Source: Mytilus trossulus (lineage: Eukaryota). Taken from it: a DNA stretch of 64,000 nt. Below are positions 10,916-59,953 of the stretch, piece after piece. Under the pieces are notes generated by a model. It made no database searches, was not told the DNA's origin, and worked only from the letters and a program-made list of their open reading frames with translations. Numbering within the stretch: position 1 is the first letter of the stretch; each line of letters opens with the position of its first letter. The stretch covers positions 50,261,378 to 50,325,377 of the forward strand of contig NC_086382.1 in the NCBI RefSeq assembly GCF_036588685.1, written 5' to 3'. The translations under genes were made by a program, and so were the position numbers.

Positions 10916-11044
10916 ATGTCAATATTTAGTGATTGTCAGATAGTCCTGGACTTGACTACCAGTGTCAACTTAAAAAAAAAGACAGAAATCAGGAAAAAGA
11001 TCACTGAAAATGGAGGAATTATTTCTTACCTTGTCACCAAGAAG
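10916..11044 (+). CDS. PARP4: PARP4-like exon 1 (start codon; BRCT N-terminus MSIFSDCQIVLDLTTSVNLKKKTEIRKKITENGGIISYLVTKK)
   Basis: ATG at 10916 and a GTATGT donor at 11045. Aligns to the human PARP4 N-terminus (KKKLQTDIKENGGKFSFSL). Confidence 0.6.
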
Positions 11045-11107
11045 GTATGTACAAGGCAATAATAAATTTTGAATGAAAATTTGCTTGTTGAACAATTCAT
11101 ATGAACT

Positions 11108-11535
11108 ACTATTCAAAATTTTATTCAAAGTAATAGACCACTTTCGAGTTCATCCGTCACCGGAAAAAACTCGTCAATTATACGCGCCTTTATCATCGTC
11201 ATTTGTGCGTTTAGGGGCGTCGTCACTTCCTTCCAATGTTGAGCGAGTGGTTGGAAAACTATAATTCTATATTGTACGAATTATTCGGCAAATTGAATTC
11301 TCAAAATTGACAATCAACACTGCTGTCATTAGGGAAATGTCAGTAAGTACCTACAGAGCAACCATTATTTCTAGTTTATCCTGCACAAAGACGATCACTA
11401 AGACGCTTGATGAACGTAAATAGTGCAGGGATACAGGCGAGCCCCTCTATCTGGTAAATGACGTCATAAAGGCGTGCATAATTGACGAGTTTTTGCCGGT
11501 GACGGATGAACTCGAAAGTGGTCTATTCAAAGTAA
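11108..11535. mobile_element. MITE-like element with about 70-bp terminal inverted repeats (intron 1)
   Basis: Positions 11120-11190 are the reverse complement of 11455-11535 (aagtaatagaccactttcgagttcatccgtcaccgg...). Confidence 0.55.
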
Positions 11536-11699
11536 AAATTAGCTTCAGGTCACCCACACAATTGGTGTCCCTTTGATCATAGTTTTTGAAGAGATTTTAT
11601 TGTAAAGCAAATATCCATCAGAATTTCAGTCTTATTTAACTTTATAAAAATAATGAGATGTGGTATGATTGCCAATGAGACAACTATCCACCAAAGTTC

Positions 11700-12920
11700 A
11701 AATGAAGTGGATGTAAGCAATTATTGGTTTGTTTTTTCTAAAAAACTAGTAATTACGATGCGAAATATGTTCTTGTTACCCCCCTTTGGCCGATCATTTG
11801 ATATTCTCGCATAACTGATTTTGAATTGTGTTCACTCCACCTTTAGTTTTAAAGTGAATTCTTTTTCCTAGTCATTACATTAGAATATGTTAGAGTAATC
11901 AGATCGAAATACATGCTATTAATCATATGTAAATAATTTAGTATTTTGTATTTTGTCTTCATGTATGTCATTATTATTATTTAGTTTTTATAGGCTAGCC
12001 TAAAGGGAGTGTTTCATTCCTTAGGTGTTTGAATTTTCAAGGGAGTGTTTCATCCTTTGGATTCATCAGTGTATATATGTCTCTTTAAGGTACTCTACTT
12101 TTAGGAGAGATTTCCGTGAGTATCTCCTAAGTAGATCTAGCAGCTGAAGAAGTGTTTTATTCTTCCTGCTTGGAGTTGAACTTTCAAGAGAGTGTTACAT
12201 CTCTTGGGTTTAACCACATCTGTAACTTGTTTGGTTTTGTTTGGCGGGCTAGTTTGGCGGATATTTAATTTTTGTGGCCCGCCTTAATTTATATTATTCT
12301 AGTTTAACTGAATAAGTATTAATATTTGTATATGTATTGGTAATTGTTCTTTATATTATTGTAATTCATGTATGTAAAGATTTATGTTTTCGGCCAAATA
12401 AATTTATATTATTATTACAGTCTTTTATGAAGCCAAGAAGTAATTGGTTTGTTTTTTCTAAAAAACTAGTAATTACGATGCGAAATATGTTCTAGTTACC
12501 CCCCTTTGGCCGATCATTTGATATTCTCGCATAACTGATTTTGAATTGTGTTCACTCCACCTTTAGTTTTAAAGTGAATTCTTTTTCCTAGTCATTACAT
12601 TAGAATACGTTAGAGAAATCAGATCGAAATTTACCCACCCGCCCTCTCCTTTTTTTTTTATTTTTGTCAAATTTCTAGTTTATTTATTTTATTTTATTTT
12701 TGCATTTTATGCATCAGTAACTTATGTGGCGGATATTTAATTTTTGTGGCCCGCCTTAATTTATATTATTCTAGTTTAACTGAATAAGTATTAATATTTG
12801 TATATGTATTGGTAATTGTTCTTTATATTATTGTAATTCATGTATGTAAAGATTTATGTTTTCGGCCAAATAAATTTATATTATTATTACAGTCTTTTAT
12901 GAAGCCAAGAAGTAATTGGC
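11700..12920. repeat. tandem segmental duplication (about 700-bp unit, 1.7 copies) in intron 1
   Basis: 11700-11900 matches 12420-12640, and 12240-12440 matches 12720-12920. Confidence 0.7.
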
Positions 12921-13677
12921 ATCTGTACATGTAAGGCTTATATATGACAACAAGAAAAATCCATGCTGTTTAGTCTGCTATAAAAGTCTCCAAACATGAA
13001 AAATTAGAAAACAATTCAATTCAGCAAACACTGAATTACAGACTCTTTGATTGGTTATTAACTGCGCCCTGGTGTGTTGTTGTAGCATGCTTGCCTCAAG
13101 TGCAGGAGATTGTGGGTTTGAAACCAAGAAGTATAACACAAAAGACTTTATTATTGGGTATTTGCTTCTTTTCTGTGATGCAACCGCATTAAAAAAATAA
13201 GAACAAGGACTGGTTTACCCTGAGTAAGAATTATGTGTTAAGGGTATACTGAGATGATCTGATTAATAGGGTAAAATTAAATAAATCAAGAATTCAAAAT
13301 TGATACTTTTAGCTTGAAGAGTATTAGTTCAGGATCAAAATAAGCTAAAATTGATAGGTCATGTAGCTCTTTTCAAGATATTTGACTTATGAAATATGGC
13401 AGAAAAAGGCTGACTTGGACTTTAACATTATATATGCAATGGTATTTTTTAGGTCTCAAATCAAAAGGAAGAAAATTAAGAATCTGCTTAAATTTTGTCA
13501 AATAACCTTTTATGAGCTATTAAGTCTCATGTAAAAAAGATAGATAGGTGTTATTGGGCAAAATATTTTACCTTGTTTGTATGGAAAATCACATTCAAGG
13601 AATCTGAACATTTGACACAAATTTCAAAACCTCCCTAATGGCTACATGTCTTCCGTAGAGACTCATTATCATCTTTA

Positions 13678-14275
13678 TTGTCTAGCTTGTTATATGTTTC
13701 TGGTTTATTTACAGAGTACACATGTTGTTTGTAATGACCCAGAAAAGGCAGATATCAGTTACAAATGTAAAATGGCCACAAAGTATGGATTACCAGTAGT
13801 GTCACTTGATTATATCCATGATTGTGTAGACCAGGGGAGATTACTCAATACAGATAATTACATCCTTGTTGTCTAGTTTGTTATATGTTTCTGGTTTATT
13901 TACAGAGTACACATGTTGTATGTAATGACTCAGAAAAGGCAGATATCAGTTACAAATGTAAAATGGCCACAAAGTATGGATTACCAGTAGTGTCACTTGA
14001 TTATATCCATGAGTGTGTAGACCAGGGGAAATCACTCTGTTGTCTAGCTTGTTATATATTTCTGGTTTATTTACAGAGTACACATGTTGTATGTAATGAC
14101 CCAGAAAAGGCAGATATCAGTTACAAATGTAAAATGGCCACAAAGTATGGATTACCAGTGGTGTCACTTGATTATATCCTTGATTGTGTAGACCAGGGGA
14201 GATTACTCAATACAGATAATTACATCCTGGTTGGAAAGACAAAGTCACAAGAATTCAGCAGTGGCAAAGTACCAG
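13678..14275 (+). repeat. PARP4: tandem triplication of a unit comprising the intron 3' end (acceptor) plus the BRCT-coding exon
   Basis: Units begin at 13678, 13869 and 14039. Each has ttatttacag followed by AGTACACATGTTGT... Only copy 3 continues to a GTAAGT donor (14276). Copy 2 is truncated and copy 1 ends without a canonical donor. Confidence 0.75.
14077..14275 (+). CDS. PARP4: PARP4-like exon 2 (BRCT: STHVVCNDPEKADISYKCKMATKYGLPVVSLDYILDCVDQGRLLNTDNYILVGKTKSQEFSSGKVP); alternative upstream copies at 13715-13864 and 13906-14035
   Basis: Phase 0 in, phase 1 out. Matches human CTHIILDNADV...IREKRLLDVKNY. Confidence 0.6.
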
Positions 14276-14282
14276 GTAAGTA

Positions 14283-14810: not shown

Positions 14811-15358
14811 GGACACGTTCCCAATTTATTTATTTTTAAATTGGATAATTATTAAAAACAAAAGAAGTTTTTATCGGTATTTCTCGTTAACTTATTAACT
14901 TTTAACTTGGGTTGGCATATCTTTTATCATTTTTCTGTGACATGAAATTGTGTAACCTGATAAAAAGGTATACCAAGGAGAGTACATCAGCCTCCCTCAA
15001 TAGGAGATCACTCTGACCTACATTTAACATTTTATCTACAATCACATCTTGTAGAATAAAGTAGACTCCATGAAAATAAATGACTCTAAACTAGATTTTA
15101 TACTTCAATGACTCTATTTAGTTTTATCTCCAAAGTCATAGGTTTAAAGTTTCCTGATATTATATGAAGAATTGTTTGGTTATATATGTATAGGAATGTA
15201 GCAGTATCTGGCAAAAAGGGCACTAAATTTTACATTATAATTTATTTTGTAGACAATAAGTGACTTTTGGTTCAAGGGGAGATAAGTGCTGTTATATGTA
15301 TCTTCAGTTTTGATAAATTAATTTATTTACATAACCCTGTTACTGTATTATTTTGTAG

Positions 15359-15501
15359 CAAGCAAGTATCAAAGTAAAGATGTGACAAAGAAGAAAATCA
15401 AAATAGATCCCAAAGGTGTTAAAGTGTGGCACCCTGGTAATAAAAATTCACCTGATTACAATGAGGAGAAATATGAAGTGGCCAAGTTTGCTATGTTTCA
15501 G
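15359..15501 (+). CDS. PARP4: PARP4-like exon 3
   Basis: ASKYQSKDVTKKKIKIDPKGVKVWHPGNKNSPDYNEEKYEVAKFAMFQ. Acceptor tttgtag, donor GTAATA. Phase 1 in, phase 0 out. Confidence 0.6.
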
Positions 15502-16432: not shown

Positions 16433-16567
16433 AAATATGACAAGTTAAAAGAGACCACGCTGTTTTATAATTTGGAGATACATGTAGCTGAGCCGGTGGA
16501 TTTGAACAGATCAGACTGTTATAGATTCAGGATATATTCACACTATGGTTCTACACAGGACATACAG
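16433..16567 (+). CDS. PARP4: PARP4-like exon 4
   Basis: KYDKLKETTLFYNLEIHVAEPVDLNRSDCYRFRIYSHYGSTQDIQ. Acceptor tatttcag, donor GTAATG. Confidence 0.6.
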
Positions 16568-17220: not shown

Positions 17221-17373
17221 GAAGCTGTTGTGGAATATCGCTATATCATTACATCAGATGATGCTCTACATGTGTATGCTTATCTGTATACTGAACAGTC
17301 AAGACCTCCACGTAATATGAATGTCATTTATCAGCCAATGATGAGAAATATTGGATCTAGAAAATTTCAAAAG
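17221..17373 (+). CDS. PARP4: PARP4-like exon 5
   Basis: EAVVEYRYIITSDDALHVYAYLYTEQSRPPRNMNVIYQPMMRNIGSRKFQK. Phase 0 at both ends. Confidence 0.55.
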
Positions 17374-20731: not shown

Positions 20732-20869
20732 ATGGTAGAAGAATATGGAATGGATACTCGTCCCTTATCTCCTTCTGTCGTAGAGTTGATGGAACATATC
20801 TGGAAAGAGGCTACAGGTGAAATTGAAGAAGTTATCAGTTCACCCTTACAGAGCCTCAAACTAGAACAG
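20732..20869 (+). CDS. PARP4: PARP4-like exon 6
   Basis: MVEEYGMDTRPLSPSVVELMEHIWKEATGEIEEVISSPLQSLKLEQ. Human counterpart is SQEVSDLVEMIWAEALGHLEHML. Donor GTAAGT. Confidence 0.65.
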
Positions 20870-21326: not shown

Positions 21327-21494
21327 ATAGAGAAAGCAGAAGCTATTTTATTAAAATGTAAAAATTGCGGTGACAACCAACAGAGAACAGGTCTAGTCGA
21401 TGAATTCTACAGCTGTTTGCCACATAGGAGAAAACATACACCATCAGACACAGAACTTAAAGCTTGGCTTTCTCAGAAACAAGATATATGTCAG
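21327..21494 (+). CDS. PARP4: PARP4-like exon 7
   Basis: IEKAEAILLKCKNCGDNQQRTGLVDEFYSCLPHRRKHTPSDTELKAWLSQKQDICQ. Human counterpart is AEGILLLVKAALKNGE...FYRLIPHK...KADLCQ. Confidence 0.7.
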
Positions 21495-23708: not shown

Positions 23709-23873
23709 ATGATTAAAGATATGGTAGCTGTGAGTGAGTCTACAAACTGGTCGACCAGAAGTAGTACGGAGGCCAAGTATAAAGCATTACGATGTAGACT
23801 GGATGGTTTAGAGATTACAGATACAGAATATAAACAGATCAAGGAACACATTATACAGTCTCTAAAACAGTTG
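23709..23873 (+). CDS. PARP4: PARP4-like exon 8
   Basis: MIKDMVAVSESTNWSTRSSTEAKYKALRCRLDGLEITDTEYKQIKEHIIQSLKQL. Human counterpart is LIRDMVNVCETN...LAKYRALRCKIEHVEQNTEEF. The donor is taken as TTG|gtatta and is uncertain by a few nt. Confidence 0.6.
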
Positions 23874-24450
23874 GTATTATACTTGACATATTTGTGATTC
23901 AGTTATTCAGGTGTAAAATTTATTGAATTAGTGACTTGAAATTAAAAAATTACTTTGTGTGTTTATAATTTCAATTTTGACATGATTTGAGATTAATTAT
24001 GGCAATTTCTGAATAAAGCTGCATACAGATATAATTAAATTAGTTAAAGGGCTTTTTTACTTCAGGAAAACTTTATAAAATATAGATTGACATATTTTAA
24101 AAGTAAATGAAGAGATGATAAAACCATTAACAAAAGAGGGACAAAAGATACCAAAGGGACAGTCAAACTCGTAAATCTAAAACAAACTGACAACGTCATG
24201 GCTAAAAATGAAAAAGACAAACAGAAAAACAATAGTACACATGACACAACATAGAAAACTAAAGAATAAACAACATGAACCCCACCAAAAACTAGGGATG
24301 ATCTCAGGTGCTCAGGAATTAACAATTTACACAGTTGCATTATTTCTTACATGCACTACTGGATAAGGAATTATTATTTGTCAGAAAACAGTTTAGTGAA
24401 CCTTTTTATTTTATAGTACTAACAATCACATTATTTTCAGAAATGACCAG

Positions 24451-24578
24451 CTTATAGTAGAAAATATATTCTGTGTTCATCGACAAGTAGAAGAAGACAA
24501 TTTTAGGAAAGATTTGAGACCTCAGAAGTTGTTGTTTCATGCCTCAAAAGTACAGAACTTTGTAGGAATATTATCTAG
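24451..24578 (+). CDS. PARP4: PARP4-like exon 9 (PARP catalytic: ...KLLFHASKVQNFVGILS)
   Basis: Contains the catalytic His motif (human LLHGSPVQNIVGILCRG). Acceptor chosen at accag|CTT to keep phase 0; alternative acceptors exist 7-10 nt upstream. Confidence 0.6.
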
Positions 24579-26220: not shown

Positions 26221-26319
26221 AGGATTAATGCTGCCTAAAGTTGTAGTGGACGATTTTGGGGGAACAAGAACAGATGCAGGAATGCTGGGAAATGGTGTCT
26301 ACTTTGCCAGTTCTGCTAG
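26221..26319 (+). CDS. PARP4: PARP4-like exon 10 (RGLMLPKVVVDDFGGTRTDAGMLGNGVYFASSAR)
   Basis: Contains the catalytic Tyr motif GNGVYFAS (human GSGIYFSD). Phase 2 in, phase 2 out. Confidence 0.7.
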
Positions 26320-26728: not shown

Positions 26729-26912
26729 TACCAGTATACAGTACTCAGACCAAAGTAAATGTAAGGGAACCAGGATGATGCTAGTCAGTAATGTTGCCCT
26801 TGGCAACTGTAAAGATTTCACAGAATACCACAAAGATCTACAGGGGCCTCCAGAGGGGTATGATAGCTGTCATGGTGTAGCGTCATCAGAAGAGCAACCA
26901 TCAGAATTCAAG
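26729..26912 (+). CDS. PARP4: PARP4-like exon 11 (TSIQYSDQSKCKGTRMMLVSNVALGNCKDF...PPEGYDSCHGVASSEEQPSEFK)
   Basis: Human counterpart is SIKYSHPGETDGTRLLLICDVALGKCMDL...APPGYDSVHGVS. Confidence 0.7.
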
Positions 26913-27739: not shown

Positions 27740-29029
27740 TTGCACTACATGTATGTAAGTAACCAATTCTCTTTTTGTCGAGCCTTCGACTTTAGTCGAA
27801 AAAGCGAGACTAAGCGATCCTACTTTCCGTCGGCGTCTGCGGCGGCGGCGGCGTCAACAAATATTCACTCTGTGGTTAAAGTTTTTTATACGACCGCTTC
27901 AAAATTTTCGTCGTATATTGCTATCACGTTGGCGTCGTCGTCTGTGCGTCGTTGTCGTCGTCGTCGTCGTCGTCGTCCGAAAATACTTTTAGTTTTCGCA
28001 CTCTAACTTTAGTAAAAGTGAATAGAAATCTATGAAATTTTAACACAAGGTTTATGACCATAAAAGGAAGGTTGGTATTGATTTTGGGAGTTTTGGTCCC
28101 AACATTTTAGGAATTAGGGGCCAAAAAGGGCCCAAATAAGCATTTTCTTGGTTTTCGCACTATAACTTTAGTTTAAGTTAATAGAAATCTATGAAATTTT
28201 GACACAAAGTTGATGACCACAAAAGAAAGGTTGGGATTGATTTTGGGAGTTTTGGTTTTAACAGTTTAGGAATTAGGGGCCAGAAAAGGGCCCAAATAAG
28301 CATTATTCTTGGTTTTCGCACAATAACTTTAGTTTAAGTAAATAGAAATCAATGAAATTTAAATATAATGTTTATGACCACAAAAGGAAGATTGGTATTG
28401 ATTTTGGGAGTTTAGATCCAAACAGTTTAGGAATTAGGGGCCAAAAAGGGACCCAAATAAGCATTTTTCTTGGTTTTCGCACCATAACGATAGTATAAGT
28501 AAATAGAAATCTATGAAATTTAAACACAAGGTTAATGACCATAAAAGGAAAGTTGGTATTGATTTTGGGAGTTTTGGTCCCAACAGTTTAGGAAAAAGGG
28601 GCCCAAAGGGTCCAAAATTAAACTTTGTTTGATTTCATCAAAATTGAATAATTGGGGTTCTTTGATATGCCGAATCTAACTGTGTATGTAGATTCTTAAC
28701 TTTTGGTCCCGTTTTCAAATTGGTCTACATTAAGGTCCAAAGGGTCCAAAATTAAACTTAGTTTGATTTTAACAAAAATTGAATCCTTGGAGTTCTTTGA
28801 TATGCTGAATCTAAAAATGTACTTAGATTTTTGATTATTGGCCCAGTTTTCAAGTTGGCCCAAATCGGGGTCCAAAATTTAACTTTTTTGATTTCATCAA
28901 AAATTGAATAAATGGGGTTCTTTGATATGCCAAATCTAACTGTGTATGTAGATTCTTCATTTTTATACGACCGCAAATTTTGAAAAAATTTTCGTCGTAT
29001 ATTGCTATCACGTTGGCGTCGTCGTCGTT

Positions 29030-29062
<33 letters not shown>

Positions 29063-32000: not shown

Positions 32001-32250
32001 CTTGGACAGAAGCTTGTTTATGATCATAAGATAGTATCCAGAAGTGAATTTTGTAAAAAAATAAATCCATTTTTCCGTATTTTTCTTTTAAATGAACTTA
32101 AATTTTCTTCCAGTTAACCATACATACATGTACAGTCTGCAGTTGTTTTTAAAACATTTATTAGATTCATAAACTATCCTGGATTTTAACCAAACTTAGA
32201 CAGAAGCTTCTTAAAATCAGAAGATTGTATCAAGAGGAATATTTTTATTG
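27740..32250. repeat. nested repeat/TE cluster: (GCG/CGT)n microsatellites, TTTTATACGACCGC-type termini, 180-bp tandem arrays (28010-28620, 29120-29700), a 650-bp direct duplication (29950-30660 vs 30840-31560), and a 190-bp tandem array (31560-32250)
   Basis: Read directly: 27880-28965 is similar to 28965-29950; ttttatacgaccgc at 27880 and 28965 versus the inverted gcggtcgtataaag at 30625 and 31523. Confidence 0.6.
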
Positions 32251-32515: not shown

Positions 32516-32660
32516 GATGATGAGTTTGTGATTTACGAAACTGACCAACAGATGACACAATACTTGGTAGAGTTCTCTGTCAGGGGAGATAACAAGAAGA
32601 CAATGAACATAGAGGAATTGTCAGACGAAATAGAGGAAGACACAGAAGTAGAAGACAAAA
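32516..32660 (+). CDS. PARP4: PARP4-like exon 12 (DDEFVIYETDQQMTQYLVEFSVRGD...; catalytic Glu)
   Basis: Human counterpart is DDEFVVYKTNQVKMKYIIKFSMPGD. Donor A|gtaaac gives phase 1. Confidence 0.65.
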
Positions 32661-33178: not shown

Positions 33179-33312
33179 TTGATTTAAAAGATGTATCTGG
33201 AATAAGGAATCCCATGGACAAAGTAGAGCCAGGATTGGTATCTACTTCAGGAGAATCATGTGTTCTTAAATCAGTCCATATCAGAGCTCAGCTTATGGAC
33301 TTGGCCTCAAAG
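33179..33312 (+). CDS. PARP4: PARP4-like exon 13
   Basis: IDLKDVSGIRNPMDKVEPGLVSTSGESCVLKSVHIRAQLMDLASK. Phase 1 in, phase 0 out. Donor GTATGA. Confidence 0.55.
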
Positions 33313-34142: not shown

Positions 34143-34367
34143 GTTGTAGTACTCCAAGAATACCACAACACCAGTACCTCTACTCTAGAAGCTAAGTATG
34201 TATTCCCATTGGATGATATGGCTGCTGTTTGTGGATTTGAAGCTTTTATAAACGGTAAACATATCGTAGGAGAAGTAAAGGAGAAGGAGACGGCTCACAA
34301 GGAATACAAGAAGGCAATAAGTGAAGGACATGGAGCCTATCTCATGGATCAGGATGAAGAAACTCCT
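34143..34367 (+). CDS. PARP4: PARP4-like exon 14 (VIT domain: EAKYVFPLDDMAAVCGFEAFINGKHIVGEVKEKETAHKEYKKAISEGHGAYLMDQDEETP)
   Basis: Near-identical to human EAKYIFPLDDKAAVCGFEAFINGKHIVGEIKEKEEAQQEYLEAVTQGHGAYLMSQD. Confidence 0.85.
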
Positions 34368-35250: not shown

Positions 35251-35406
35251 GATGTATTTACAGTCAGTGTGGGTAATCTACCACCAGGGTGTGTGGCCCT
35301 CATCAAGATAACTTATGTATCAGAATTACAAGTAGAGGGAGAATTGATTAACTTTACAATTCCTGGATCTGTGGCTCCTTGGAAACAGGGACCCAGTAAT
35401 ACTGAG
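35251..35406 (+). CDS. PARP4: PARP4-like exon 15 (DVFTVSVGNLPPGCVALIKITYVSELQVEGELINFTIPGSVAPWKQGPSNTE)
   Basis: Human counterpart is DVFTVSVGNLPPKAKVLIKITYITEL...ATVAPWQQD. Confidence 0.8.
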
Positions 35407-35692
35407 GTAAGGGAGGTAATCTACCACCAGGGTGTGTAGCCCTCATCAAGATAACTTATGTATCAGAATTACAAGTAGAGGGAGAATTGATTAACTTTAC
35501 AATTCCTGGATCTGTGGCTCCTTGGAAAGAGGGACCCAGTAATACTGAGGTAAGGGAGGTAATCTACCACCAGGGTGTGTAGCCCTCATCAAGATAACTT
35601 ATGTATCAGAATTACAAGTAGAAGGAGAATTAATTAACTTCACAATTCCTGGATCTGTGGCTCCTTGGAAACAGGGACCCAGTAATACTGAG
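35407..35692 (+). repeat. PARP4: two extra tandem copies (143 bp each) of [first 8 nt of intron + last 135 nt of exon 15]
   Basis: gtaaggga + GGTAATCTACC...ACTGAG repeated at 35407 and 35550. The copies differ from the exon at a synonymous GTG-to-GTA site. The 143-nt length would shift the frame if the downstream donors were used. Confidence 0.8.
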
Positions 35693-37363: not shown

Positions 37364-37456
37364 AGTTCAGAAGACAGTTGTAGTATACAAGTCTCCGTAC
37401 AGATGCCATTTGACATCAGAACTATAACATGCCCAACACATCAAATTAGAAAAAAG
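37364..37456 (+). CDS. PARP4: PARP4-like exon 16
   Basis: SSEDSCSIQVSVQMPFDIRTITCPTHQIRKK. Human counterpart is SFSLTMSIEMPYVIEFIFSDTHELKQKRT. Confidence 0.6.
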
Positions 37457-37765: not shown

Positions 37766-37900
37766 AAAACAGCCACTAGTTGTATCATTGAGATGATTGG
37801 ACAGAAAATATCTGATGGATTTCAATTACTGATAGGACTTGCTGAAATACATGTTCCGAGGATGTGGGTTGAGGTGGATAGTGAAGGGACACAGACTGAG
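37766..37900 (+). CDS. PARP4: PARP4-like exon 17
   Basis: KTATSCIIEMIGQKISDGFQLLIGLAEIHVPRMWVEVDSEGTQTE. Human counterpart is DCKAVISTMEGSSLDSSGFSLHIGLSAAYLPRMWVEKHPEKESE. Confidence 0.75.
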
Positions 37901-38287: not shown

Positions 38288-38474
38288 GCAGCCATGTTGA
38301 CATTTTATCCAGAATTTGAAGCAGCAGAAGACAACGAAACAGAGATAATACTTGTCCTCGACCTTTCAAATTCAATGAAGGGGAAAGCTTTGTTGGAAGC
38401 GAAGAAAATTTTACTGCTGACATTAAACCACTTGACAGCTCATAGTTTGTTTAACATTGTAGTTTTTGGCACAA
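38288..38474 (+). CDS. PARP4: PARP4-like exon 18 (vWA domain start: ILVLDLSNSMKGKALLEAKKILLLTLNHLTAHSLFNIVVFGT)
   Basis: Human counterpart is VIICLDCSSSMEGVTFLQAKQIALHALSLVGEKQKVNIIQFGTG. MIDAS-like DxSxS motif. Confidence 0.75.
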
Positions 38475-42667: not shown

Positions 42668-42741
42668 GTTATAAAGAATTATTCCCAACCAGCCAAATCA
42701 AATCAAAAAGTACTCTGAAGGTTGCAGAACAGTTTGTTCAG
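42668..42741 (+). CDS. PARP4: PARP4-like exon 19
   Basis: (S)YKELFPTSQIKSKSTLKVAEQFVQ. Human counterpart is GYKELFSYPKHITSNTMAAEFIMS. Phase 1 in, phase 0 out. Confidence 0.7.
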
Positions 42742-42990: not shown

Positions 42991-43178
42991 GGAATACATG
43001 CTAGTATGGGTAGCACAGAGGTATATCGTCCCCTCCACAGTTTCTTCCTCCTAAAACCGGAGAACTCCTTGAGAAATGTCTTTATATTATCTGACGGCCA
43101 TATTAACAATGAGGAGACAACTCTTAAAGCTGTTCATGACAACTGTCAGCACACTAGGATCTTTACATTCGGTGTCAG
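42991..43178 (+). CDS. PARP4: PARP4-like exon 20 (vWA: ...LRNVFILSDGHINNEETTLKAVHDNCQHTRIFTFGV)
   Basis: Human counterpart is SRNILLVSDGHLQDESLTLQLVKRSRPHTRLFACGIG. Confidence 0.8.
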
Positions 43179-43978: not shown

Positions 43979-44078
43979 TTCTATTGCTAACAAACATGTA
44001 TTAAAGGCTATGTCCAGACTTGGAGCAGGTTCCTTTGAATATTTTGATTCTCATGCAAAATCAAAGTGGGAAAGTAAG
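43979..44078 (+). CDS. PARP4: PARP4-like exon 21
   Basis: (S)SIANKHVLKAMSRLGAGSFEYFDSHAKSKWESK. Human counterpart is STANRHVLRILSQCGAGVFEYFNAKSKHSWRKQ. Confidence 0.8.
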
Positions 44079-46566: not shown

Positions 46567-46731
46567 GTGAAATCCCAAATTCAGAAGACCTCTCAACCAG
46601 TGCTGACCTCTGTATCAGTTGCTTGGCAACAGTTTGATAATCCTCCTCCAGTTCAAGCGCCACAACAAATCACAGCTCTGTTTAATGGCTCCAGACTTGT
46701 GGTATATGGATTTGTTAGCAATTGTAAAATG
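46567..46731 (+). CDS. PARP4: PARP4-like exon 22
   Basis: VKSQIQKTSQPVLTSVSVAWQQFDNPPPVQAPQQITALFNGSRLVVYGFVSNCKM. Human counterpart is SVSVKWQQLNPDVPEALQAPAQVPSLFLNDRLLVYGFIPHC. Confidence 0.8.
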
Positions 46732-47413: not shown

Positions 47414-47494
47414 GCTACATTGAAGGCAGAAATAGGTGGGCAACAAATATCAACAGTAGTATATACATCAGAATTAAGTTTGACGAAAGGAAAG
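47414..47494 (+). CDS. PARP4: PARP4-like exon 23
   Basis: ATLKAEIGGQQISTVVYTSELSLTKGK. Human counterpart is ATLCALIQEKEFRTMVSTTELQKTTGT. Confidence 0.65.
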
Positions 47495-48504: not shown

Positions 48505-48585
48505 GTTCTTCACTGCTTGACTGCTAAAGCTGTGATCAGAGACTGGGAAGATGGAGTACTCTCCCCTGACAGTATTGACCATCAG
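48505..48585 (+). CDS. PARP4: PARP4-like exon 24
   Basis: VLHCLTAKAVIRDWEDGVLSPDSIDHQ. Human counterpart is IHKLAARALIRDYEDGILHENETSHE. Confidence 0.7.
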
Positions 48586-48725
48586 GTAAATATATACTTT
48601 ATAATAGAGACTGGAAAGATGGAGTACTCTCCCCTGATAGTATTGACCATCAGGTAAATATATACTTTATAATAGAGACTGGGAAGATGCAGTACTCTCC
48701 CCTGATAGTATTGACCATTATGTAT
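48586..48725 (+). repeat. PARP4: two extra tandem copies (69 bp each) of [first 24 nt of intron + last 45 nt of exon 24]
   Basis: gtaaatatatactttataatagag + ACTGG.AAGATG.AGTACTCTCCCCTGA.AGTATTGACCAT repeated. The copies carry a synonymous GAC-to-GAT change. Confidence 0.75.
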
Positions 48726-49215: not shown

Positions 49216-49317
49216 TTAAAGAAGATGAATATGAAAGACTATATAATAGAACTGAGTAAGAAATATTCCATTGTTACACAGCTGACAAGTTTTATTGCTG
49301 TAGAGAAAAGAGAAAAG
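49216..49317 (+). CDS. PARP4: PARP4-like exon 25
   Basis: LKKMNMKDYIIELSKKYSIVTQLTSFIAVEKREK. Human counterpart is LKSLIIKLSKENSLITQFTSFVAVEKRDE. Confidence 0.75.
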
Positions 49318-50600: not shown

Positions 50601-51019
50601 AAATGATATAAAATCTGTCTTCTGCAATTGATGTATCCAACCTGAGTCACTGTCATTATATCTAACAGATATTTTTTAAAAAGATTCAACTATTTCTAAA
50701 ACTTGGGAATATGTATGTGGCTTCTCAAAATCCTGAAGAGATCTAATATATTGAAAAATTTTAGAATGATTTTTTTTATTGTGATGGATTTTTGATTAAT
50801 TGACAAAATTGGAAGATTAATTATTTAAATTTTTAAATACAAATAAAACAAGCAAAATTTGAAAAAGAAGTTTTCATTTTTGCAAAGCTTATACTGTTGC
50901 AATTTTCTCAATATTAAAAACATCACAAATTATATCTGAATTTACTGTTTTAAAAGCAACACATTTATGAAGGCTGTCTTGATTATATACACAAACATTT
51001 TAAAAGCCTCTACTTGTTT

Positions 51020-54000
51020 GTTAAAGATTGTTTATTAAACATTTGTAGGATGAGGTAATATTGTCAGAGGGATCATTTATATTAGAGTTAGTTGATAGTT
51101 TGTTAGAGATTGTTTATTAAACATTTGTAGGATGAGGAAGTATCGTCAGAGGGATCATTTATATCAGAGTTAGTTGATAGTTTGTTAGAGATTGTTTATT
51201 AAACATTTGTAGGATGAGGTAGTATCGTCAGAGGGATCATTTATATCAGAGTTAGTTGATAGTTTGTTAGAGATTGTTTATTAAACATTTGTAGGATGAG
51301 GTAGTATCGTCAGATGGACCTTTTATATCAGAGTTAGTTGATAGTTTGTTAGAGATTGTTTATTAAACATTTGTAGGATGAGGAAGTATCATCAGATGGA
51401 CCTTTTATATCAGAGTTAGTTGATAGTTTGTTAGAGATTGTTTATTAAACATTTGTAGGATGAGGAAGTATCATCAGATGGACCTTTTTTATCAGAGTTA
51501 GTTGATAGTTTGTTAGAGATTGTTTATTAAACATTTGTAGGATGAGGTAGTATCGTCAGAGGGATCATTTATATCAGAGTTAGTTGATAGTTTGTTAGAG
51601 ATTGTTTATTAAACATTTGTAGGATGAGGAAGTATCATCAGATGGACCTTTTATATCAGAGTTAGTTGATAGTTTGTTAGAGATTGTTTATTAAACATTT
51701 GTAGGATGAGGTAGTATCATCAGAGGGATCATTTATATCAGAGTTAGTTGATAGTTTGTTAGAGATTGTTTATTAAACATTTGTAGGATGAGGTAGAATC
51801 GTCAGATGGACCTTTTATATCAGAGTTAGTTGATAGTTTGTTAGAGATTGTTTATTAAACATTTGTAGGATGAGGAAGTATCATCAGATGGACCTTTTAT
51901 ATCAGAGTTAGTTGATAGTTTGTTAGAGATTGTTTATTAAACATTTGTAGGATGAGGTAGTATCATCAGATGGACCTTTTATATCAGAGTTAGTTGATAG
52001 TTTGTTAGAGATTGTTTATTAAACATTTGTAGGATGAGGTAGAATCGTCAGATGGACCTTTTATATCAGAGTTAGTTGATAGTTTGTTAGAGATTGTTTA
52101 TTAAACATTTGTAGGATGAGGAAGTATCATCAGATGGACCTTTTATATCAGAGTTAGTTGATAGTTTGTTAGAGATTGTTTATTAAACATTTGTAGGATG
52201 AGGTAGTATCGTCAGAGGGATCATTTATATCAGAGTTAGTTGATAGTTTGTTAGAGATTGTTTATTAAACATTTGTAGGATGAGGTAGAATCGTCAGATG
52301 GACCTTTTATATCAGAGTTAGTTGATAGTTTGTTAGAGATTGTTTATTAAACATTTGTAGGATGAGGAAGTATCATCAGATGGACCTTTTATATCAGAGT
52401 TAGTTGATAGTTTGTTAGAGATTGTTTATTAAACATTTGTAGGATGAGGTAGTATCGTCAGAGGGATCATTTATATCAGAGTTAGTTGATAGTTTGTTAG
52501 AGATTGTTTATTAAACATTTGTAGGATGAGGTAGAATCGTCAGATGGACCTTTTATATCAGAGTTAGTTGATAGTTTGTTAGAGATTGTTTATTAAACAT
52601 TTGTAGGATGAGGAAGTATCATCAGATGGACCTTTTATATCAGAGTTAGTTGATAGTTTGTTAGAGATTGTTTATTAAACATTTGTAGGATGAGGTAGTA
52701 TCGTCAGAGGGATCATTTATATCAGAGTTAGTTGATAGTTTGTTAGAGATTGTTTATTAAACATTTGTAGGATGAGGTAGAATCGTCAGATGGACCTTTT
52801 ATATCAGAGTTAGTTGATAGTTTGTTAGAGATTGTTTATTAAACATTTGTAGGATGAGGAAGTATCATCAGATGGACCTTTTATATCAGAGTTAGTTGAT
52901 AGTTTGTTAGAGATTGTTTATTAAACATTTGTAGGATGAGGTAGAATCGTCAGATGGACCTTTTATATCAGAGTTAGTTGATAGTTTGTTAGAGATTGTT
53001 TATTAAACATTTGTAGGATGAGGAAGTATCATCAGATGGACCTTTTATATCAGAGTTAGTTGATAGTTTGTTAGAGATTGTTTATTAAACATTTGTAGGA
53101 TGAGGTAGTATCGTCAGAGGGATCATTTATATCAGAGTTAGTTGATAGTTTGTTAGAGATTGTTTATTAAACATTTGTAGGATGAGGAAGTATCATCAGA
53201 TGGACCTTTTATATCAGAGTTAGTTGATAGTTTGTTAGAGATTGTTTATTAAACATTTGTAGGATGAGGAAGTATCATCAGATGGACCTTTTATATCAGA
53301 GTTAGTTGATAGTTTGTTAGAGATTGTTTATTAAACATTTGTAGGATGAGGTAGTATCGTCAGAGGGATCATTTATATCAGAGTTAGTTGATAGTTTGTT
53401 AGAGATTGTTTATTAAACATTTGTAGGATGAGGTAGAATCGTCAGATGGACCTTTTATATCAGAGTTAGTTGATAGTTTGTTAGAGATTGTTTATTAAAC
53501 ATTTGTAGGATGAGGAAGTATCGTCAGATGGACCTTTTATATCAGAGTTAGTTGATAGTTTGTTAGAGATTGTTTATTAAACATTTGTAGGATGAGGAAG
53601 TATCATCAGATGGACCTTTTATATCAGAGTTAGTTGATAGTTTGTTAGAGATTGTTTATTAAACATTTGTAGGATGAGGTAGTATCGTCAGAGGGATCAT
53701 TTATATCAGAGTTAGTTGATAGTTTGTTAGAGATTGTTTATTAAACATTTGTAGGATGAGGAAGTATCATCAGATGGACCTTTTATATCAGAGTTAGTTG
53801 ATAGTTTGTTAGAGATTGTTTATTAAACATTTGTAGGATGAGGAAGTATCATCAGATGGACCTTTTATATCAGAGTTAGTTGATAGTTTGTTAGAGATTG
53901 TTTATTAAACATTTGTAGGATGAGGAAGTATCGTCAGATGGACCTTTTATATCAGAGTTAGTTGATAGTTTGTTAGAGATTGTTTATTAAACATTTGTAG
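51020..54000 (+). repeat. PARP4: tandem array of about 38 copies of a 78-bp unit, where each unit is the intron 3' end (ttgttagagattgtttattaaacatttgtag) plus the first 47 nt of exon 26 (GATGAGGAAGTATCATCAGATGGACCTTTTATATCAGAGTTAGTTGATAG)
   Basis: Read directly. At least three unit variants (GAGGAAGTATCATCAGATGGACC, GAGGTAGTATCGTCAGAGGGATC, GAGGTAGAATCGTCAGATGGACC) alternate in a higher-order pattern. The last unit runs straight into the authentic exon 26. Confidence 0.9.
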
Positions 54001-54097
54001 GATGAGGAAGTATCGTCAGATGGACCTTTTATATCAGAGTTAGTTGATAGAGAAGATGTGGACTTCCTTAACTACCTCAACTGGGAGGGAGAGACAG
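54001..54097 (+). CDS. PARP4: PARP4-like exon 26
   Basis: DEEVSSDGPFISELVDREDVDFLNYLNWEGET(G). Human counterpart is PFPDIPKVSELIAKEDVDFLPYMSWQGEPQ. Donor GTAAGT. Phase 1 out. Confidence 0.75.
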
Positions 54098-55127
54098 GTA
54101 AGTAATCAATAGACTTTTCTCATAATACCCACTTTTGACTTCAGATTTTTTTTTCTGTCAAAAGGTACCTATTATGTGGTAAACATCTTAGTACTCAGAC
54201 AAGTCAAGAAAGAGCAACAAGAAGAAGTAAAATCAAACATCTAATTGGTTCAATTTTTGGGAAAAGTTTTCTGTTTCCCATAATTTGTCCTATAAAGAAA
54301 AAGTAAAACTAAATTTCCCCTTAAATTGTAAAGATTGTAAGCTTGGCTTCTTTAACTGAAAGTTGCTCCTACTTGTCAGAGTACCAGGATGTCCAACTAC
54401 AGATAAGTTAACCTGTCTAAAAAAACAAACTACGGAGTCAAAAGTTGGTAATATGAAAATAGTCTTATGTTCTAAAAATTCATCTGCTTACCAAAGAAGT
54501 ATTTTTTGCCATAATTTGTAGATGTTTATATTTAACCTTCTGTGTGATCCTAACATATTTTGGAGTTTTGTGACTGTAACACCTTGTGGAGGAATCTCTT
54601 CTGAGACGATTTCACAGAAAGCTCTCACATGCATATCAGTCAACTGACCCGTATTCTGCGGGTGTGACCCGAGATTTTCACAATTATGAAGGATCACCCG
54701 GGACACCCGCCGGGTCATTCAAATAACCCGGGAATTCCGAAAATGACCCGATTTCACCCGTTTTTCTTAGCTTTGAGATTGATTTCATAAGTAATATATT
54801 CCTTTGAAATACCGGAATATTCGTAATTCTTCCATGAACAGGAAGTTCATTTAGCTATACAAACTGTCAAATTAAGTGACCCATTAAGGGTATGGCTTCA
54901 CTTGACAGCTTTGGTGTCAAACAAACTGTTAATTAACACCAATTACCTTAGCTTTAGGTCGTAAATAAATTGTAAACATATTTCAAATAGACGTCTAGAG
55001 TTACTTCCCCTTATTTGTCACCATTCAAAATTATTCCTTATATTTACGTTTTGTGGGTGAAAAAGATTAAATCATTAATAAATATAAAATTCAAATACAT
55101 ATTGAAAACTAAATTTTTATTTATATA

Positions 55128-56107: not shown

Positions 56108-56230
56108 GAAGTGTCTATAGTAGTAGCAATGAGGAAGAAAGCACTAGTGAGGATGAAAGTCTAAGTAGTGGAGGATTTGTAAAAGGAGTTCAAAGAGGAG
56201 CAGTGGATGGGGAAGATCTTATTACTTCAG
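56108..56230 (+). CDS. candidate exon 27 (acidic/Ser-rich linker: SVYSSSNEEESTSEDESLSSGGFVKGVQRGAVDGEDLITS)
   Basis: Acceptor atttaag and donor G|gtaaaa. No in-frame ATG. The preceding in-frame genomic codon is TAA, so this must be an internal exon. Phase-compatible with both exon 26 and exon 28. Confidence 0.45.
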
Positions 56231-57948: not shown

Positions 57949-58092
57949 AACTGAAAGAAGCTTTCCATTTATTTTCTGAAGATGATGGGCATACAATTTC
58001 TACAAAAGATGTTGGGCCTCTCATGAAGGCTTTGGGTCAAAATCCAACAGAAGCAGAACTACAAATCATAATAAATGATCTTGACTTTGATG
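57949..58092 (+). CDS. calmodulin-like exon (EF-hands 1-2: [49 protein letters not shown])
   Basis: Aligns to calmodulin [49 protein letters not shown]. Acceptor attttcag, donor G|gtaatc. Confidence 0.7.
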
Positions 58093-58196
58093 GTAATCTA
58101 TTCCAAGCATAATTTGTATCAATGAAAAATAATCTATAAGATATAGATAGAAATTTATAAATTATGTCTGCAAGCAAGCTAATTTTAAGTGGTATA

Positions 58197-58575
58197 AACT
58201 AGTGTTGTCGGTTAACCGTCGTAAGGACCAAATACCGAATACCAAAAACGCTAAGCGGTTAACCGGGCGGGTTTTTTTTCTTCAAATTTTTAGATTTGAA
58301 ATAAATGTATTGAAATCATTAATTAATATATAATAAACGCCATAGTAGTTACAGAGTATGGGATTATTAAAAGTCAAACTTCCGCAGGAATCCTCACAGA
58401 CAACGCTTTATAATGTCAAAGGACAAACTTTAGTTCATGGTATATAATATTAAAACGTACATTTAAAAGTTGCAACAGATAAGGCCGTCAAACATTAACT
58501 TAAACTACTGGTTAACCGGTTAATCGGTCGAACGATACTTCGAGTAACCGGTTAGGCAAAACTGTACAATTTGAC
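58197..58575. mobile_element. MITE-like element with about 12-bp TIRs (ACTAGTGTTGTC ... GACAACACTAGT)
   Basis: Both termini are flanked by ATAA(ACT). Confidence 0.4.
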
Positions 58576-59645
58576 AACACTAGTATAAACTGTACTCAAC
58601 TGAAATAAAAACTTGTTTTTGTTTGCTAAAAAATTATCATGTATTGTTTTCAGTGTAATGCCATTGTTAAAAGATACTTACATATATAAAGGACAAGGTA
58701 CGATAAGGCCCAACTTTCTGGTTTTATACAAATATTGTAATTATTATTGACTTTGTAGGTGTTCAGTACAACTAATTTTTAGTTTTTTAGTGCCTGCCCG
58801 AACGTGACCCAGGATTTTTTTTATTCCAATGTCATGAGAACTGTTTTTGCTGTCTAAATCGCCATAATTTTCTCTTGGTCACGTAGGCACACACTATTAA
58901 ATTTTAAGAAACAATGGCCGAAAAACGTTATTTTCCTTCTTTTGGATTTTTTATGCCCTTTTACCCTCCTCACCTCACCCATTTTCTGAAATTGATGGTT
59001 TTGAAGTTCATCCAAACAAACTTCAAACCTAAGGGAATATTTTAACGTGATAAGAAGCTTTCCAAAACAAAATTTGAAAATGAGAAAATAGGGGGGCCAA
59101 AAACCAGCCTTATAGTACCTTGTCCTATATATAATATGAGGCAGGCATTACCTGTAAATGGGGACGAAGTCTGTATGAATTATATTTTTGTAACTTAAAT
59201 ATTTGTTAAAAAAAGAAACGGAAATATACCGTCATGTTTCCGATATTGGTTCTGTCGTTAGGGAGTTTAGTTGTGACGTTATTTAAGTTATGACGTCATA
59301 TGCAATGTAAACAAAGAAACACTATCATCAGGTAACGTTTTTTCATTAAAAATGAAATTGATATTGCGTTTCTTCCTTTTTATAATAGATTGGTAAATAT
59401 ATATTTTACTTAAAGATTCATACAAACAAAACCGGAAAAAGGAAGTACATTGTAGATTTCTGCGCAAGTCCGGGATTTCAAAACATGACATAAAAAAAAT
59501 TGAATGATTTTGAGTTCATTAGTACAATGAAAAATTCGGGAAATTTTCCCGATTTTTTTTTTTATATTGAAATTTCTACTGTTATTGGGGACTTCGTCAC
59601 CATATAAAAAAATATATAAATTTAGATTTTAAATTTGTATTTTAG

Positions 59646-59953
59646 ATAGAGGTACAGTTGACTTTCCAGGATTTTACACATTAATGACACATAAAATGAA
59701 AGATACTGATGCAGAAGAAGAAATAATGGAAGCATTCAAAGTATTTGACAAAGATGGTAAAGGATCTATCAGCATGTCAGATTTAAGACATGTGATGACA
59801 AACTTAGGGGAGAAATTAACAGACGAGGAGATTGAAGAAATGATGAGAGAAGCTGATGTGGACAGTACTGACCAACAGATTGATTATTTTGCCTTTGTAA
59901 AGAGGATGATGGACGAGGAAAAATGTGAACCAGTTCAGCCTTCGGGTAATTAA
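59646..59953 (+). CDS. calmodulin-like terminal exon (EF-hands 2-4, stop TAA at 59951)
   Basis: [84 protein letters not shown]... Calmodulin counterpart is [76 protein letters not shown]. Confidence 0.8.

What the first reader, a model, noticed from the sequence alone, without database searches (positions are those of the whole stretch)
10916..59953. Roughly 49-kb, 29-exon gene encoding a PARP4 (vault PARP)-like protein with consistent splice phases
Exon-by-exon translation gives BRCT, a PARP catalytic domain with the H-Y-E triad (LLFHAS, GNGVYFAS, DDEFVIY), VIT and vWA. Several blocks are 60-80 percent identical to human PARP4, for example AKYVFPLDDMAAVCGFEAFINGKHIVGE and DVFTVSVGNLPP. All 28 junctions use GT-AG with compatible phases. 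For a hand-built model that is strong internal evidence. PARP4 is the only PARP with this domain order, so an invertebrate orthologue with conserved architecture is worth confirming.
Basis: partly seen in the sequence, partly recalled or inferred. Interest (0 to 1): 0.6.

Follow-up and report, generated by a model that had tools for sequence, protein, structure and literature searches.

The report
Mussel PARP4 gene, cut short
This is a real mussel (Mytilus) copy of the vault-associated enzyme PARP4, already in public databases, but the proposed 29-exon model probably stops too early, because the reading frame continues through calmodulin-like and Snf7-like exons and runs off the end of the window.

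Summary
A 29-exon, GT-AG, open 1394-codon model at 10916-59953 can be rebuilt exactly. It encodes BRCT, PARP (H-Y-E), VIT and vWA, and human PARP4 is its best solved relative. Exons 1-26 are 100% identical to RefSeq XP_063404518.1 (PARP4-like, Mytilus trossulus), so the core gene is already annotated.

The 3' end is the weak part. Homology to structured human PARP4 stops at the end of exon 26. Exon 27 encodes an acidic linker. That donor joins Snf7-like exons at 60686-63003, and the ORF is still open there.

A RefSeq M. galloprovincialis model (XP_076077943.1, 3045 aa, 53 exons) continues through SNARE-like and Hsp70-like modules to the vault-binding domain. On that model the window holds only about 32 of 53 exons. 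The tail exons keep frame, length and splice sites across three species, yet evolve fast (dN/dS about 0.8, against 0.09 for the core). No transcript data could be reached, so how the tail is joined remains inferred. A conserved mini-exon at 54380-54411 probably gives a short isoform.

The parts
10916..11044 (+). Coding exon 1 (aa 1-43), start ATG, first half of BRCT
   Evidence: Exact match to P0001. An in-frame stop lies 6 nt upstream of the ATG.
14077..14275 (+). Exon 2 (aa 44-109), second half of BRCT. It is the third and only complete copy in a 3-copy tandem array.
15359..15501 (+). Exon 3 (aa 110-157)
16433..16567 (+). Exon 4 (aa 158-202)
17221..17373 (+). Exon 5 (aa 203-253)
20732..20869 (+). 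Exon 6 (aa 254-299), start of the helical regulatory region
   Evidence: PARP_reg gives a weak hit at 269-373.
21327..21494 (+). Exon 7 (aa 300-355), helical regulatory region
23709..23869 (+). Exon 8 (aa 356-408), end of the helical region and start of the ART domain
24441..24578 (+). Exon 9 (aa 409-454), ART domain; catalytic His in LLFHAS
26221..26319 (+). Exon 10 (aa 455-487), ART domain; catalytic Tyr in GNGVYFAS
26729..26912 (+). Exon 11 (aa 488-549), ART domain
32516..32660 (+). Exon 12 (aa 550-597), end of ART; catalytic Glu in DDEFVIY
33179..33312 (+). Exon 13 (aa 598-642), start of VIT
34143..34367 (+). Exon 14 (aa 643-717), VIT core
35251..35406 (+). Exon 15 (aa 718-769), end of VIT. 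It is the first copy in a 143-bp x3 array, and only this copy is in frame.
37364..37456 (+). Exon 16 (aa 770-800), ITIH-like region
37766..37900 (+). Exon 17 (aa 801-845), ITIH-like region
38288..38474 (+). Exon 18 (aa 846-907), start of vWA
42668..42741 (+). Exon 19 (aa 908-932), vWA
42991..43178 (+). Exon 20 (aa 933-994), vWA
43979..44078 (+). Exon 21 (aa 995-1028), end of vWA
46567..46731 (+). Exon 22 (aa 1029-1083), ITIH-like region
47414..47494 (+). Exon 23 (aa 1084-1110)
48505..48585 (+). Exon 24 (aa 1111-1137). Its 3' part and donor are repeated in a 68-bp x2.7 array.
49216..49317 (+). Exon 25 (aa 1138-1171)
51016..54050 (+). Tandem array, 82 bp x 37 copies. Each unit holds the acceptor and first ~50 nt of exon 26, and only the last copy continues into the full exon.
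   Evidence: Absent from the orthologous loci.
54001..54097 (+). Exon 26 (aa 1172-1203), last exon homologous to structured human PARP4 (up to human residue 1214). Donor is phase 1.
54380..54411 (+). Alternative short terminal exon (EYQDVQLQIS, stop TAA) used by RefSeq XP_063404518.1. It would give a 1213-aa isoform lacking the tail.
   Evidence: An 85-nt block around it is 85/85 identical in M. galloprovincialis (P about 0.006).
56108..56230 (+). Exon 27 (41 aa, acidic and Ser-rich linker), phase 1-1
   Evidence: Used in the M. edulis and M. galloprovincialis models.
57949..58092 (+). Exon 28, calmodulin-like module part 1 (EF-hands 1-2), phase 1-1. It has no start codon of its own before EF-hand 1.
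59646..59945 (+). Exon 29 up to its internal donor (GTAATT), calmodulin-like module part 2 (EF-hands 3-4), phase 1-1.
   Evidence: Donor and stop are conserved in L002 and L003.
60686..60874 (+). Exon 30, Snf7/CHMP4-like module, phase 1-1. It has no start codon of its own.
   Evidence: Snf7 Pfam hit, E 5e-26.
61879..62056 (+). Exon 31, Snf7-like module
62919..63003 (+). Exon 32, Snf7-like module. Donor is GTTAGT and the frame stays open. The next exon is not found in the window.

Best explanation
The window holds the 5' two-thirds of a Mytilus PARP4 (vault PARP) gene, most likely from M. trossulus.

Shown:
- Exons 1-26 (10916-54097) encode the canonical PARP4 core: BRCT, a PARP1-like helical and ART catalytic domain with an intact H-Y-E triad, then the ITIH-like VIT-vWA region.
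- The exons after exon 26 are conserved in three species and stay in frame.

Inferred:
- After exon 26 the gene enters a tail made mostly of phase-1, frame-neutral cassette exons. The tail sits where human PARP4 has its disordered, positively selected linker.
- In this window the tail comprises an acidic linker exon (27), a calmodulin-like module that has probably lost canonical Ca2+ binding (28-29) and the start of a Snf7/CHMP4-like module (30-32).
- By comparison with the M. galloprovincialis orthologue, it continues beyond the window through SNARE-like, coiled-coil and two Hsp70 substrate-binding-domain-like modules to the MVP-interacting domain, which tethers PARP4 inside vault particles.
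- Alternative 3' ends then decide whether the enzyme carries the tail and the vault anchor. The choices are the mini-exon at 54380, the stop after exon 29, or continuation through the 59945 donor.
- The enzyme itself presumably ADP-ribosylates targets in or near vaults, as in vertebrates.
For: Core identity:
- Exons 1-26 match RefSeq PARP4-like XP_063404518.1 at 1203/1203 residues.
- The best solved relatives are human PARP4 chains: E 8e-71 for the catalytic region with H, Y and E in register, and E 1e-161 for VIT-vWA, ending exactly at the end of exon 26.
- The Pfam architecture is BRCT-PARP-VIT-vWA.

Tail belongs to the same reading frame:
- Exons 1-32 give 1543 codons with no stop, and skipping exon 27 or the calmodulin cassette also keeps the frame.
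- RefSeq XP_076077943.1 (3045 aa) strings all these exons together, and I resolved it into 53 GT-AG exons on its own locus.
- Its C-terminus matches only human PARP4 residues 1575-1636, inside the MVPID (E 3.7e-4).
- All 32 window exons are conserved in M. edulis and M. galloprovincialis, with AG/GT intact at 61 of the 62 junction checks. The one exception, the exon 26 donor in L002, fell in an alignment gap.
- In M. galloprovincialis (L003), tail exons 27-31 have lengths identical to the window and exon 32 differs by one in-frame 6-nt insertion, whereas the flanking introns carry 12-16 indel events per kb. One in-frame indel was seen in 1019 nt where about 12 were expected (P about 6e-5). In M. 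edulis (L002), exon 30 also shows a 2-nt insertion.
- Intron phases: 13 of 19 tail introns are phase 1, against 3 of 25 in the core (P 3e-4).
- Neither the calmodulin-like nor the Snf7-like module has a start codon of its own. The RefSeq 'CHMP4c-like' model has to start at a Met inside EF-hand 1.

Context:
- Appended 14-3-3, actin and ubiquitin domains are documented in PARP4-clade proteins (PMC4245714) and are seen here in other molluscs and cnidarians.
- MVP is abundant in mussel gill (PMC5302490).
Against: - No transcript evidence could be obtained.
- RefSeq for M. trossulus itself splits the locus into PARP4-like (1213 aa, ending at 54411) and 'CHMP4c-like' (EF-hand + Snf7 + SNARE, 376 aa).
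- Tail dN/dS is about 0.8, and about 1.2 for the Snf7-like part. That could mean weak functional constraint on the modules themselves.
- My Pfam copy did not detect PF26156 on the M. galloprovincialis C-terminus, and the MVPID match to human PARP4 is modest.
- The M. edulis copy of exon 30 shows a 2-nt insertion. This may be an assembly error or a real frameshift.
Confidence: 0.7

Rival explanations
1. Two or more separate genes. PARP4 ends at the mini-exon at 54380-54411 (1213 aa), as in RefSeq M. trossulus. The EF-hand, Snf7 and SNARE exons form an independent downstream gene ('CHMP4c-like'). On this view the long fused models, and the reader's exons 27-29, are gene-prediction chimeras of neighbouring same-strand genes.
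For: - RefSeq XP_063404518.1 and XP_063404519.1 are annotated as adjacent separate genes in the same species.
- The mini terminal exon is strongly conserved.
- The older M. edulis and M. galloprovincialis models disagree with each other, which is typical of merged predictions.
- Phase compatibility alone is weak evidence.
Against: - XP_063404519.1 starts at an internal Met that cuts off EF-hand 1. The 25 codons upstream in the same exon are clearly calmodulin-homologous but have no ATG.
- Exon 27 is conserved, in frame and without indels, yet belongs to no other gene.
- Phase-1 boundaries are enriched across the tail.
- The vault-binding domain lies downstream of these modules on the same strand in a single RefSeq ORF.
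- Pinctada joins PARP4 to a calmodulin-like module at the same position in the calmodulin sequence (E[FL]KEAF).
Confidence: 0.2
2. The reader's model is exactly right as the main product: a 1394-aa PARP4 with a C-terminal calmodulin-like domain that ends at the TAA at 59951-59953. Exon 29 is the normal terminal exon, and the Snf7 exons belong to another gene.
For: The M. edulis model CAG2205447 (P0036) has this same tail. The stop codon two codons after the donor is conserved in three species. Polyadenylation-like hexamers occur from 60072 onward.
Against: The GTAATT donor at 59946 is conserved too. It is used in two RefSeq models and one M. edulis model. The Snf7 exon at 60686 starts in phase 1 with no ATG. 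This product would lack the MVP-interacting domain that defines vault association.
Confidence: 0.1

Closest known systems
Human PARP4 (vault PARP, clade 5 PARP)
   Same: Same order of BRCT, PARP1-like helical and ART catalytic domain with H-Y-E, then VIT-vWA (ITIH-like). The window product aligns end to end with human residues about 252-570 and 609-1214. The orthologous long model ends in a domain matching the human MVPID.
   Different: Where human PARP4 has a roughly 350-residue disordered linker (PMC10450202), the mussel gene has a chain of recognisable modules: calmodulin-like and Snf7-like in this window, then SNARE-like and two Hsp70-SBD-like modules in the orthologue. On the long model the protein would be about 3000 aa rather than 1724.
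RefSeq XP_063404518.1 / XP_063404519.1 (M. trossulus) and XP_076077943.1 (M. galloprovincialis)
   Same: The window encodes the first 1203 residues of XP_063404518.1 and the first 274 residues of XP_063404519.1 without any difference. It shares 85-97% identity, segment by segment, with XP_076077943.1.
   Different: It matches the tail of M. edulis CAG2205447 rather than any RefSeq model.
Clade-5 PARP4-like proteins with appended 14-3-3, actin or ubiquitin domains (Perina et al. 2014, PMC4245714)
   Same: Extra modules derived from abundant cytosolic proteins are placed after VIT-vWA. I saw actin N-terminal fragments in Pinctada, Saccostrea, Nematostella, Rhopilema and a Mytilus paralogue, 14-3-3 in that paralogue, and ubiquitin in Mercenaria and Gigantopelta.
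   Different: Calmodulin-like, Snf7-like, SNARE-like and Hsp70-SBD-like modules were not among those reported. I found no paper describing them in PARP4.
Calmodulin
   Same: 65% identity over 136 residues and a four-EF-hand layout.
   Different: It lacks the first ~11 residues and a start codon. All four loops have lost the position-12 glutamate (E to D, G, D, F/A). It is embedded in frame in a larger ORF and evolves at dN/dS about 0.5.

Membership tests
PARP4 (vault PARP, clade 5) | ART catalytic domain with the H-Y-E triad, closest to PARP4 among PARPs | tested here: met
   Human PARP4 8sx1 at E 8e-71, against PARP2 at 5e-24 and PARP1 at about 1e-15. H, Y and E are aligned. Pfam PARP, E 8e-31.
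PARP4 (vault PARP, clade 5) | N-terminal BRCT domain | tested here: met
   Pfam BRCT, E 3e-12, residues 2-81.
PARP4 (vault PARP, clade 5) | VIT + vWA (ITIH-like region) following the catalytic domain | tested here: met
   VIT E 1e-36 and VWA_3 E 9e-20. The region aligns to human PARP4 609-1214 at E 1e-161.
PARP4 (vault PARP, clade 5) | PARP1-like WGR and helical (HD) domains before the ART | tested here: inconclusive
   PARP_reg gives only a sub-threshold hit (22.8 bits, cut-off 26.8). However, the HD region aligns with human PARP4 252-390. WGR was not tested separately.
PARP4 (vault PARP, clade 5) | C-terminal MVP-interacting domain (MVPID) | tested here: inconclusive
   Not present in the window. 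In the M. galloprovincialis orthologue the C-terminus matches only human PARP4 1575-1636 (E 3.7e-4), and precomputed Pfam lists PF26156 for the orthologous models. My own Pfam scan found nothing. Whether it is joined to these exons in M. trossulus is unproven.
PARP4 (vault PARP, clade 5) | Physical association with vault particles; ADP-ribosyltransferase activity | not testable with these tools
   Context only: MVP is abundant in the M. edulis gill proteome (PMC5302490).
Calmodulin (for exons 28-29) | Four canonical Ca2+-binding EF-hand loops, free-standing ~149-aa protein | tested here: not met
   The position-12 Glu is replaced in all four loops. There is no start codon and the first helix is absent. 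It is calmodulin-like, not calmodulin.
CHMP4 / Snf7 ESCRT-III (for exons 30-32) | Snf7 domain in a free-standing ~220-aa protein with its own N-terminus | tested here: inconclusive
   The Snf7 domain is detected (E 5e-26, profile positions 2-157 of 171). However, the first exon begins in phase 1 with no ATG, and the module evolves at dN/dS about 0.8-1.2.

The most novel reading that the evidence does not exclude
The folded modules strung between the ITIH-like region and the vault anchor are not decayed passengers. They are functional baits or adaptors. In Mytilus they are calmodulin-like, Snf7-like, SNARE-like and Hsp70-SBD-like. In other invertebrates they are actin, 14-3-3 and ubiquitin fragments. 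On this reading they are copies of host proteins that pathogens or stress pathways commonly engage, displayed on a vault-tethered ADP-ribosyltransferase, swapped in and out as phase-1 cassettes, and evolving fast. That would be the invertebrate counterpart of the positively selected linker in primate PARP4.
Probability: 0.12. Interest if true: 0.7.

Novelty: new member of a known kind. Interest (0 to 1): 0.3.

Why it matters
A mollusc PARP4 orthologue with conserved architecture is expected, and this one is already in RefSeq.

The practical value is a warning about annotation. The same exons are joined in at least four different ways across public Mytilus annotations. The vault-binding end of the protein may be separated from the enzyme core by modules that annotators name as independent genes ('CHMP4c-like', 'sulfhydryl light chain').

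If the long form is real, mussel PARP4 would show that the linker between enzyme and vault anchor is a site of repeated domain capture. In primates that same linker is fast-evolving and has been linked to host-virus conflict. This gives a concrete handle on what PARP4 and vaults interact with, which is still an open question.

Tried and rejected
- A homology search with the whole tail was swamped by calmodulins. It gave only one useful hit, P0093.
- A junction-focused search returned only P0093 and no RNA-derived ORFs.
- Exact look-ups of P0001, P0017 and P0093 found no contig.
- L001, the first M. edulis locus fetched, proved a poor comparator. It has many 1-4 bp indels in the core exons and lacks exon 26, so its dN/dS values were discarded in favour of L002 and L003.
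- A Pfam scan of the M. galloprovincialis C-terminus for the MVP-ID family found nothing. A PDB sequence search was used instead.
- I considered that the tail exons might be dead sequence picked up by gene predictors. I rejected this because of identical exon lengths, intact splice sites and the strong indel deficit relative to introns.
- I considered that the exon-overlapping tandem arrays might provide mutually exclusive exons. I rejected this because extra copies are out of frame or lack a splice site, and the arrays are absent from sister species.
- I looked for a vault RNA or other known RNA gene. There were no Rfam hits.


Full report
**What was checked first**

Joining the obvious exon cores and searching the protein database gave 45 hits. 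The top hit is RefSeq 'protein mono-ADP-ribosyltransferase PARP4-like [Mytilus trossulus]' (P0001, XP_063404518.1, 1213 aa). It is followed by PARP4 proteins from other molluscs, hemichordates, lancelets, cnidarians and vertebrates. The window is therefore mussel DNA.

An exact protein-to-genome walk showed that exons 1-25 reproduce P0001 residue for residue with GT-AG at every junction. Exon 26 does the same. Given 1203/1203 identity to this protein and 274/274 to its RefSeq neighbour, the source is most likely M. trossulus itself.

Adding three further exons (56108-56230, 57949-58092, 59646-59953) gives exactly 29 exons over 10916-59953. All 28 junctions are AG...GT, and the frame is uninterrupted for 1394 codons.

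| Domain (Pfam) | Residues |
|---|---|
| BRCT | 2-92 |
| PARP catalytic | 394-570 |
| VIT | 616-739 |
| vWA | 864-1014 |

Against solved structures, the catalytic region is closest to human PARP4 (8sx1, E 8e-71; PARP2 is next at 5e-24). His, Tyr and Glu of the triad are in register. The VIT-vWA region aligns to human PARP4 residues 609-1214 at E 1e-161. The quoted blocks are about 93% and 100% identical. The PARP4 assignment is secure.

**Where the model is weak: the 3' end**

Homology to the structured part of human PARP4 stops at '...EDVDFLxYxxWxGE' (human residue 1214), which is precisely the end of exon 26.

- Exon 27 encodes a 41-residue acidic, serine-rich stretch.
It is 65% identical to calmodulin, but the position-12 glutamate is replaced in all four loops. 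It also lacks the first helix and any start codon.

The exon 26 donor is phase 1, and several acceptors fit it.

- A mini-exon at 54380-54411 (EYQDVQLQIS, then stop) is the end used by RefSeq in M. trossulus.
- Exon 27 at 56108 also fits, and its own phase-1 donor fits either exon 28 or a Snf7-like exon at 60686.
Through that donor the frame runs into 60686-60874, 61879-62056 and 62919-63003.
- Exons 1-32 together make 1543 codons without a stop, still open where the window ends.

**Public models disagree**

The same exons are joined in at least four ways.

| Model | Species | Joining |
|---|---|---|
| XP_063404518.1 | M. trossulus | Core plus mini-exon |
| XP_063404519.1 ('CHMP4c-like') | M. 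trossulus | Internal Met of exon 28, exon 29, Snf7, SNARE |
| CAG2256489 | M. edulis | Core, exon 27, calmodulin-like, Snf7 |
| VDI59028 | M. galloprovincialis | Exon 27 straight to Snf7, then on to the C-terminus |
| XP_076077943.1 (3045 aa) | M. galloprovincialis | Everything |

I fetched the locus of XP_076077943.1 (L003) and resolved it into 53 GT-AG coding exons over 66.9 kb. Its order is: core, exon 27, calmodulin-like, Snf7-like, SNARE-like, acidic and coiled-coil regions, two Hsp70 substrate-binding-domain-like exons, an S/P/Q-rich linker, then a C-terminal domain. The only PDB match of that C-terminal domain is human PARP4 1575-1636, inside the MVP-interacting domain (E 3.7e-4). Only residues up to about 1545 of the 3045 map into this window.

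**Are the tail exons real coding exons of this gene?**

I compared the window with the intact orthologous loci of M. edulis (L002) and M. galloprovincialis (L003).

- All 32 exons are present. AG/GT is intact at 61 of the 62 junction checks; the exception is the exon 26 donor in L002, which fell in an alignment gap.
- In L003, tail exons 27-31 are exactly the same length as in the window, and exon 32 differs by a single in-frame 6-nt insertion. The surrounding introns differ several-fold in length and carry 12-16 indel events per aligned kb. One in-frame indel in 1019 nt, where about 12 are expected, has P about 6e-5. L002 additionally shows a 2-nt insertion in exon 30.
- Of the 19 tail introns, 13 are phase 1, against 3 of 25 in the core (P 3e-4). 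This is the pattern of frame-neutral cassettes, and it explains why every published combination stays in frame.
- Neither the calmodulin-like nor the Snf7-like module has a start codon of its own. The 'CHMP4c-like' RefSeq model has to begin inside EF-hand 1.
- The Pinctada model joins PARP4 to a calmodulin-like module at the same point in calmodulin.

These points favour one transcription unit with alternative ends over accidental merging of neighbouring genes. They remain inference, because I could not reach any transcript data.

**The tail evolves differently from the core**

| Region (window vs M. galloprovincialis) | dN/dS | Detail |
|---|---|---|
| Core | 0.09 | 114 synonymous, 42 non-synonymous changes; dS 0.17 |
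| Tail, exons 27-31 | 0.83 | 9 synonymous, 31 non-synonymous; dS 0.05 |
| Calmodulin-like | ~0.45 | |
| Snf7-like | ~1.2 | |

The core-tail contrast is significant (Fisher P 7e-9). Protein identity falls from 96.6% in the core to 85% in the Snf7-like part. The reading frame is therefore protected, but the sequence is only weakly constrained, or is being driven to change.

This is the same position at which human PARP4 has a disordered linker carrying the positively selected sites (PMC10450202).

**Alternative short end**

The block around the 54380 mini-exon is 85/85 identical in M. galloprovincialis, within an intron that diverges by about 6% (P about 0.006). The short isoform without tail and vault anchor is therefore probably genuine as well.

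**Comparison with what is known**

[quoted passage not shown] Clade-5 proteins with appended 14-3-3, actin and ubiquitin-related domains were described in 2014 (PMC4245714).
- I saw the same kinds of module here: an actin N-terminal fragment in Pinctada, Saccostrea, Nematostella, Rhopilema and a Mytilus paralogue; 14-3-3 in that paralogue; ubiquitin in Mercenaria and Gigantopelta.
- I found no paper describing calmodulin-like, Snf7-like, SNARE-like or Hsp70-like modules in PARP4.
- Major vault protein is abundant in mussel gill (PMC5302490), so a vault-tethered PARP4 is plausible in this animal.

**Verdict**

The finding is a correct identification of an already annotated gene, with an incomplete 3' end. 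The core needs no further confirmation. The modestly interesting part is the cassette-built, fast-evolving tail and the annotation disagreement around it. Settling that needs long-read cDNA.

Noticed in passing
window 13665-14233, 35272-35709, 48538-48718, 51016-54050: Four tandem arrays each start or end inside an exon of the PARP4 gene: 191 bp x3, 143 bp x3, 68 bp x2.7 and 82 bp x37. They duplicate splice sites together with partial exons. The 82-bp array creates 37 copies of the exon 26 acceptor. None is present at the orthologous M. edulis or M. galloprovincialis loci, so they are specific to this genome or assembly. M. galloprovincialis has a different 80-bp x2 array at its exon 11 acceptor (L003 14448-14607).
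   Followed up: partly
window 543-1184 and 2354-2917 (broader region 1-3560): Two partial copies of a non-LTR retrotransposon reverse transcriptase lie head to tail upstream of the gene (Pfam RVT_1, E 7e-27 and 4e-5), with near-identical flanking ORFs.
   Followed up: partly
window 27992-29944 and 31564-32108 (intron 11); L002 15907-18130: Satellite-like arrays of 161, 135 and 192 bp fill much of the 5.6-kb intron 11. The same 161/135-bp repeat family sits in a different intron of the M. edulis orthologue, so it is a mobile or dispersed repeat.
   Followed up: no
window exons and introns 1-25 versus 26-31, compared with L003: Neutral divergence from M. galloprovincialis is about half to a third as large in the tail region as in the core (intron divergence 0.058 vs 0.104; dS 0.05 vs 0.17). 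This could reflect introgression, a sweep, or non-orthologous haplotypes in one part of the gene.
   Followed up: no
L001 (M. edulis CAJPWZ010001022.1, 3459991-3501072): This is a second M. edulis copy of the locus. It has many 1-4 bp indels inside the core exons and no exon 26, but intact-looking tail exons. It is either a decaying duplicate or an error-rich assembly region. It lies on the same contig as the PARP4 paralogue P0003.
   Followed up: partly
proteins P0175 and P0003 (Mytilus paralogue); P0004, P0005, P0012, P0008, P0026, P0030: Other invertebrate PARP4 models carry fragments rather than whole domains after vWA: actin profile positions ~3-65 of 410, and 14-3-3 positions 133-223 of 223. 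Ubiquitin is full length. The actin fragment shares derived residues between Pinctada and Saccostrea, so it is an old resident of the gene and not contamination.
   Followed up: partly
window 54340-54440: The sequence around the mini terminal exon is invariant across three Mytilus species, unlike the rest of intron 26. This suggests a functional alternative 3' end.
   Followed up: partly
window 27759-29189: Long (GAC/GTC)n-type simple repeats read as poly-Arg, poly-Asp or poly-Val in different frames. They lie inside intron 11 and are not coding.
   Followed up: no
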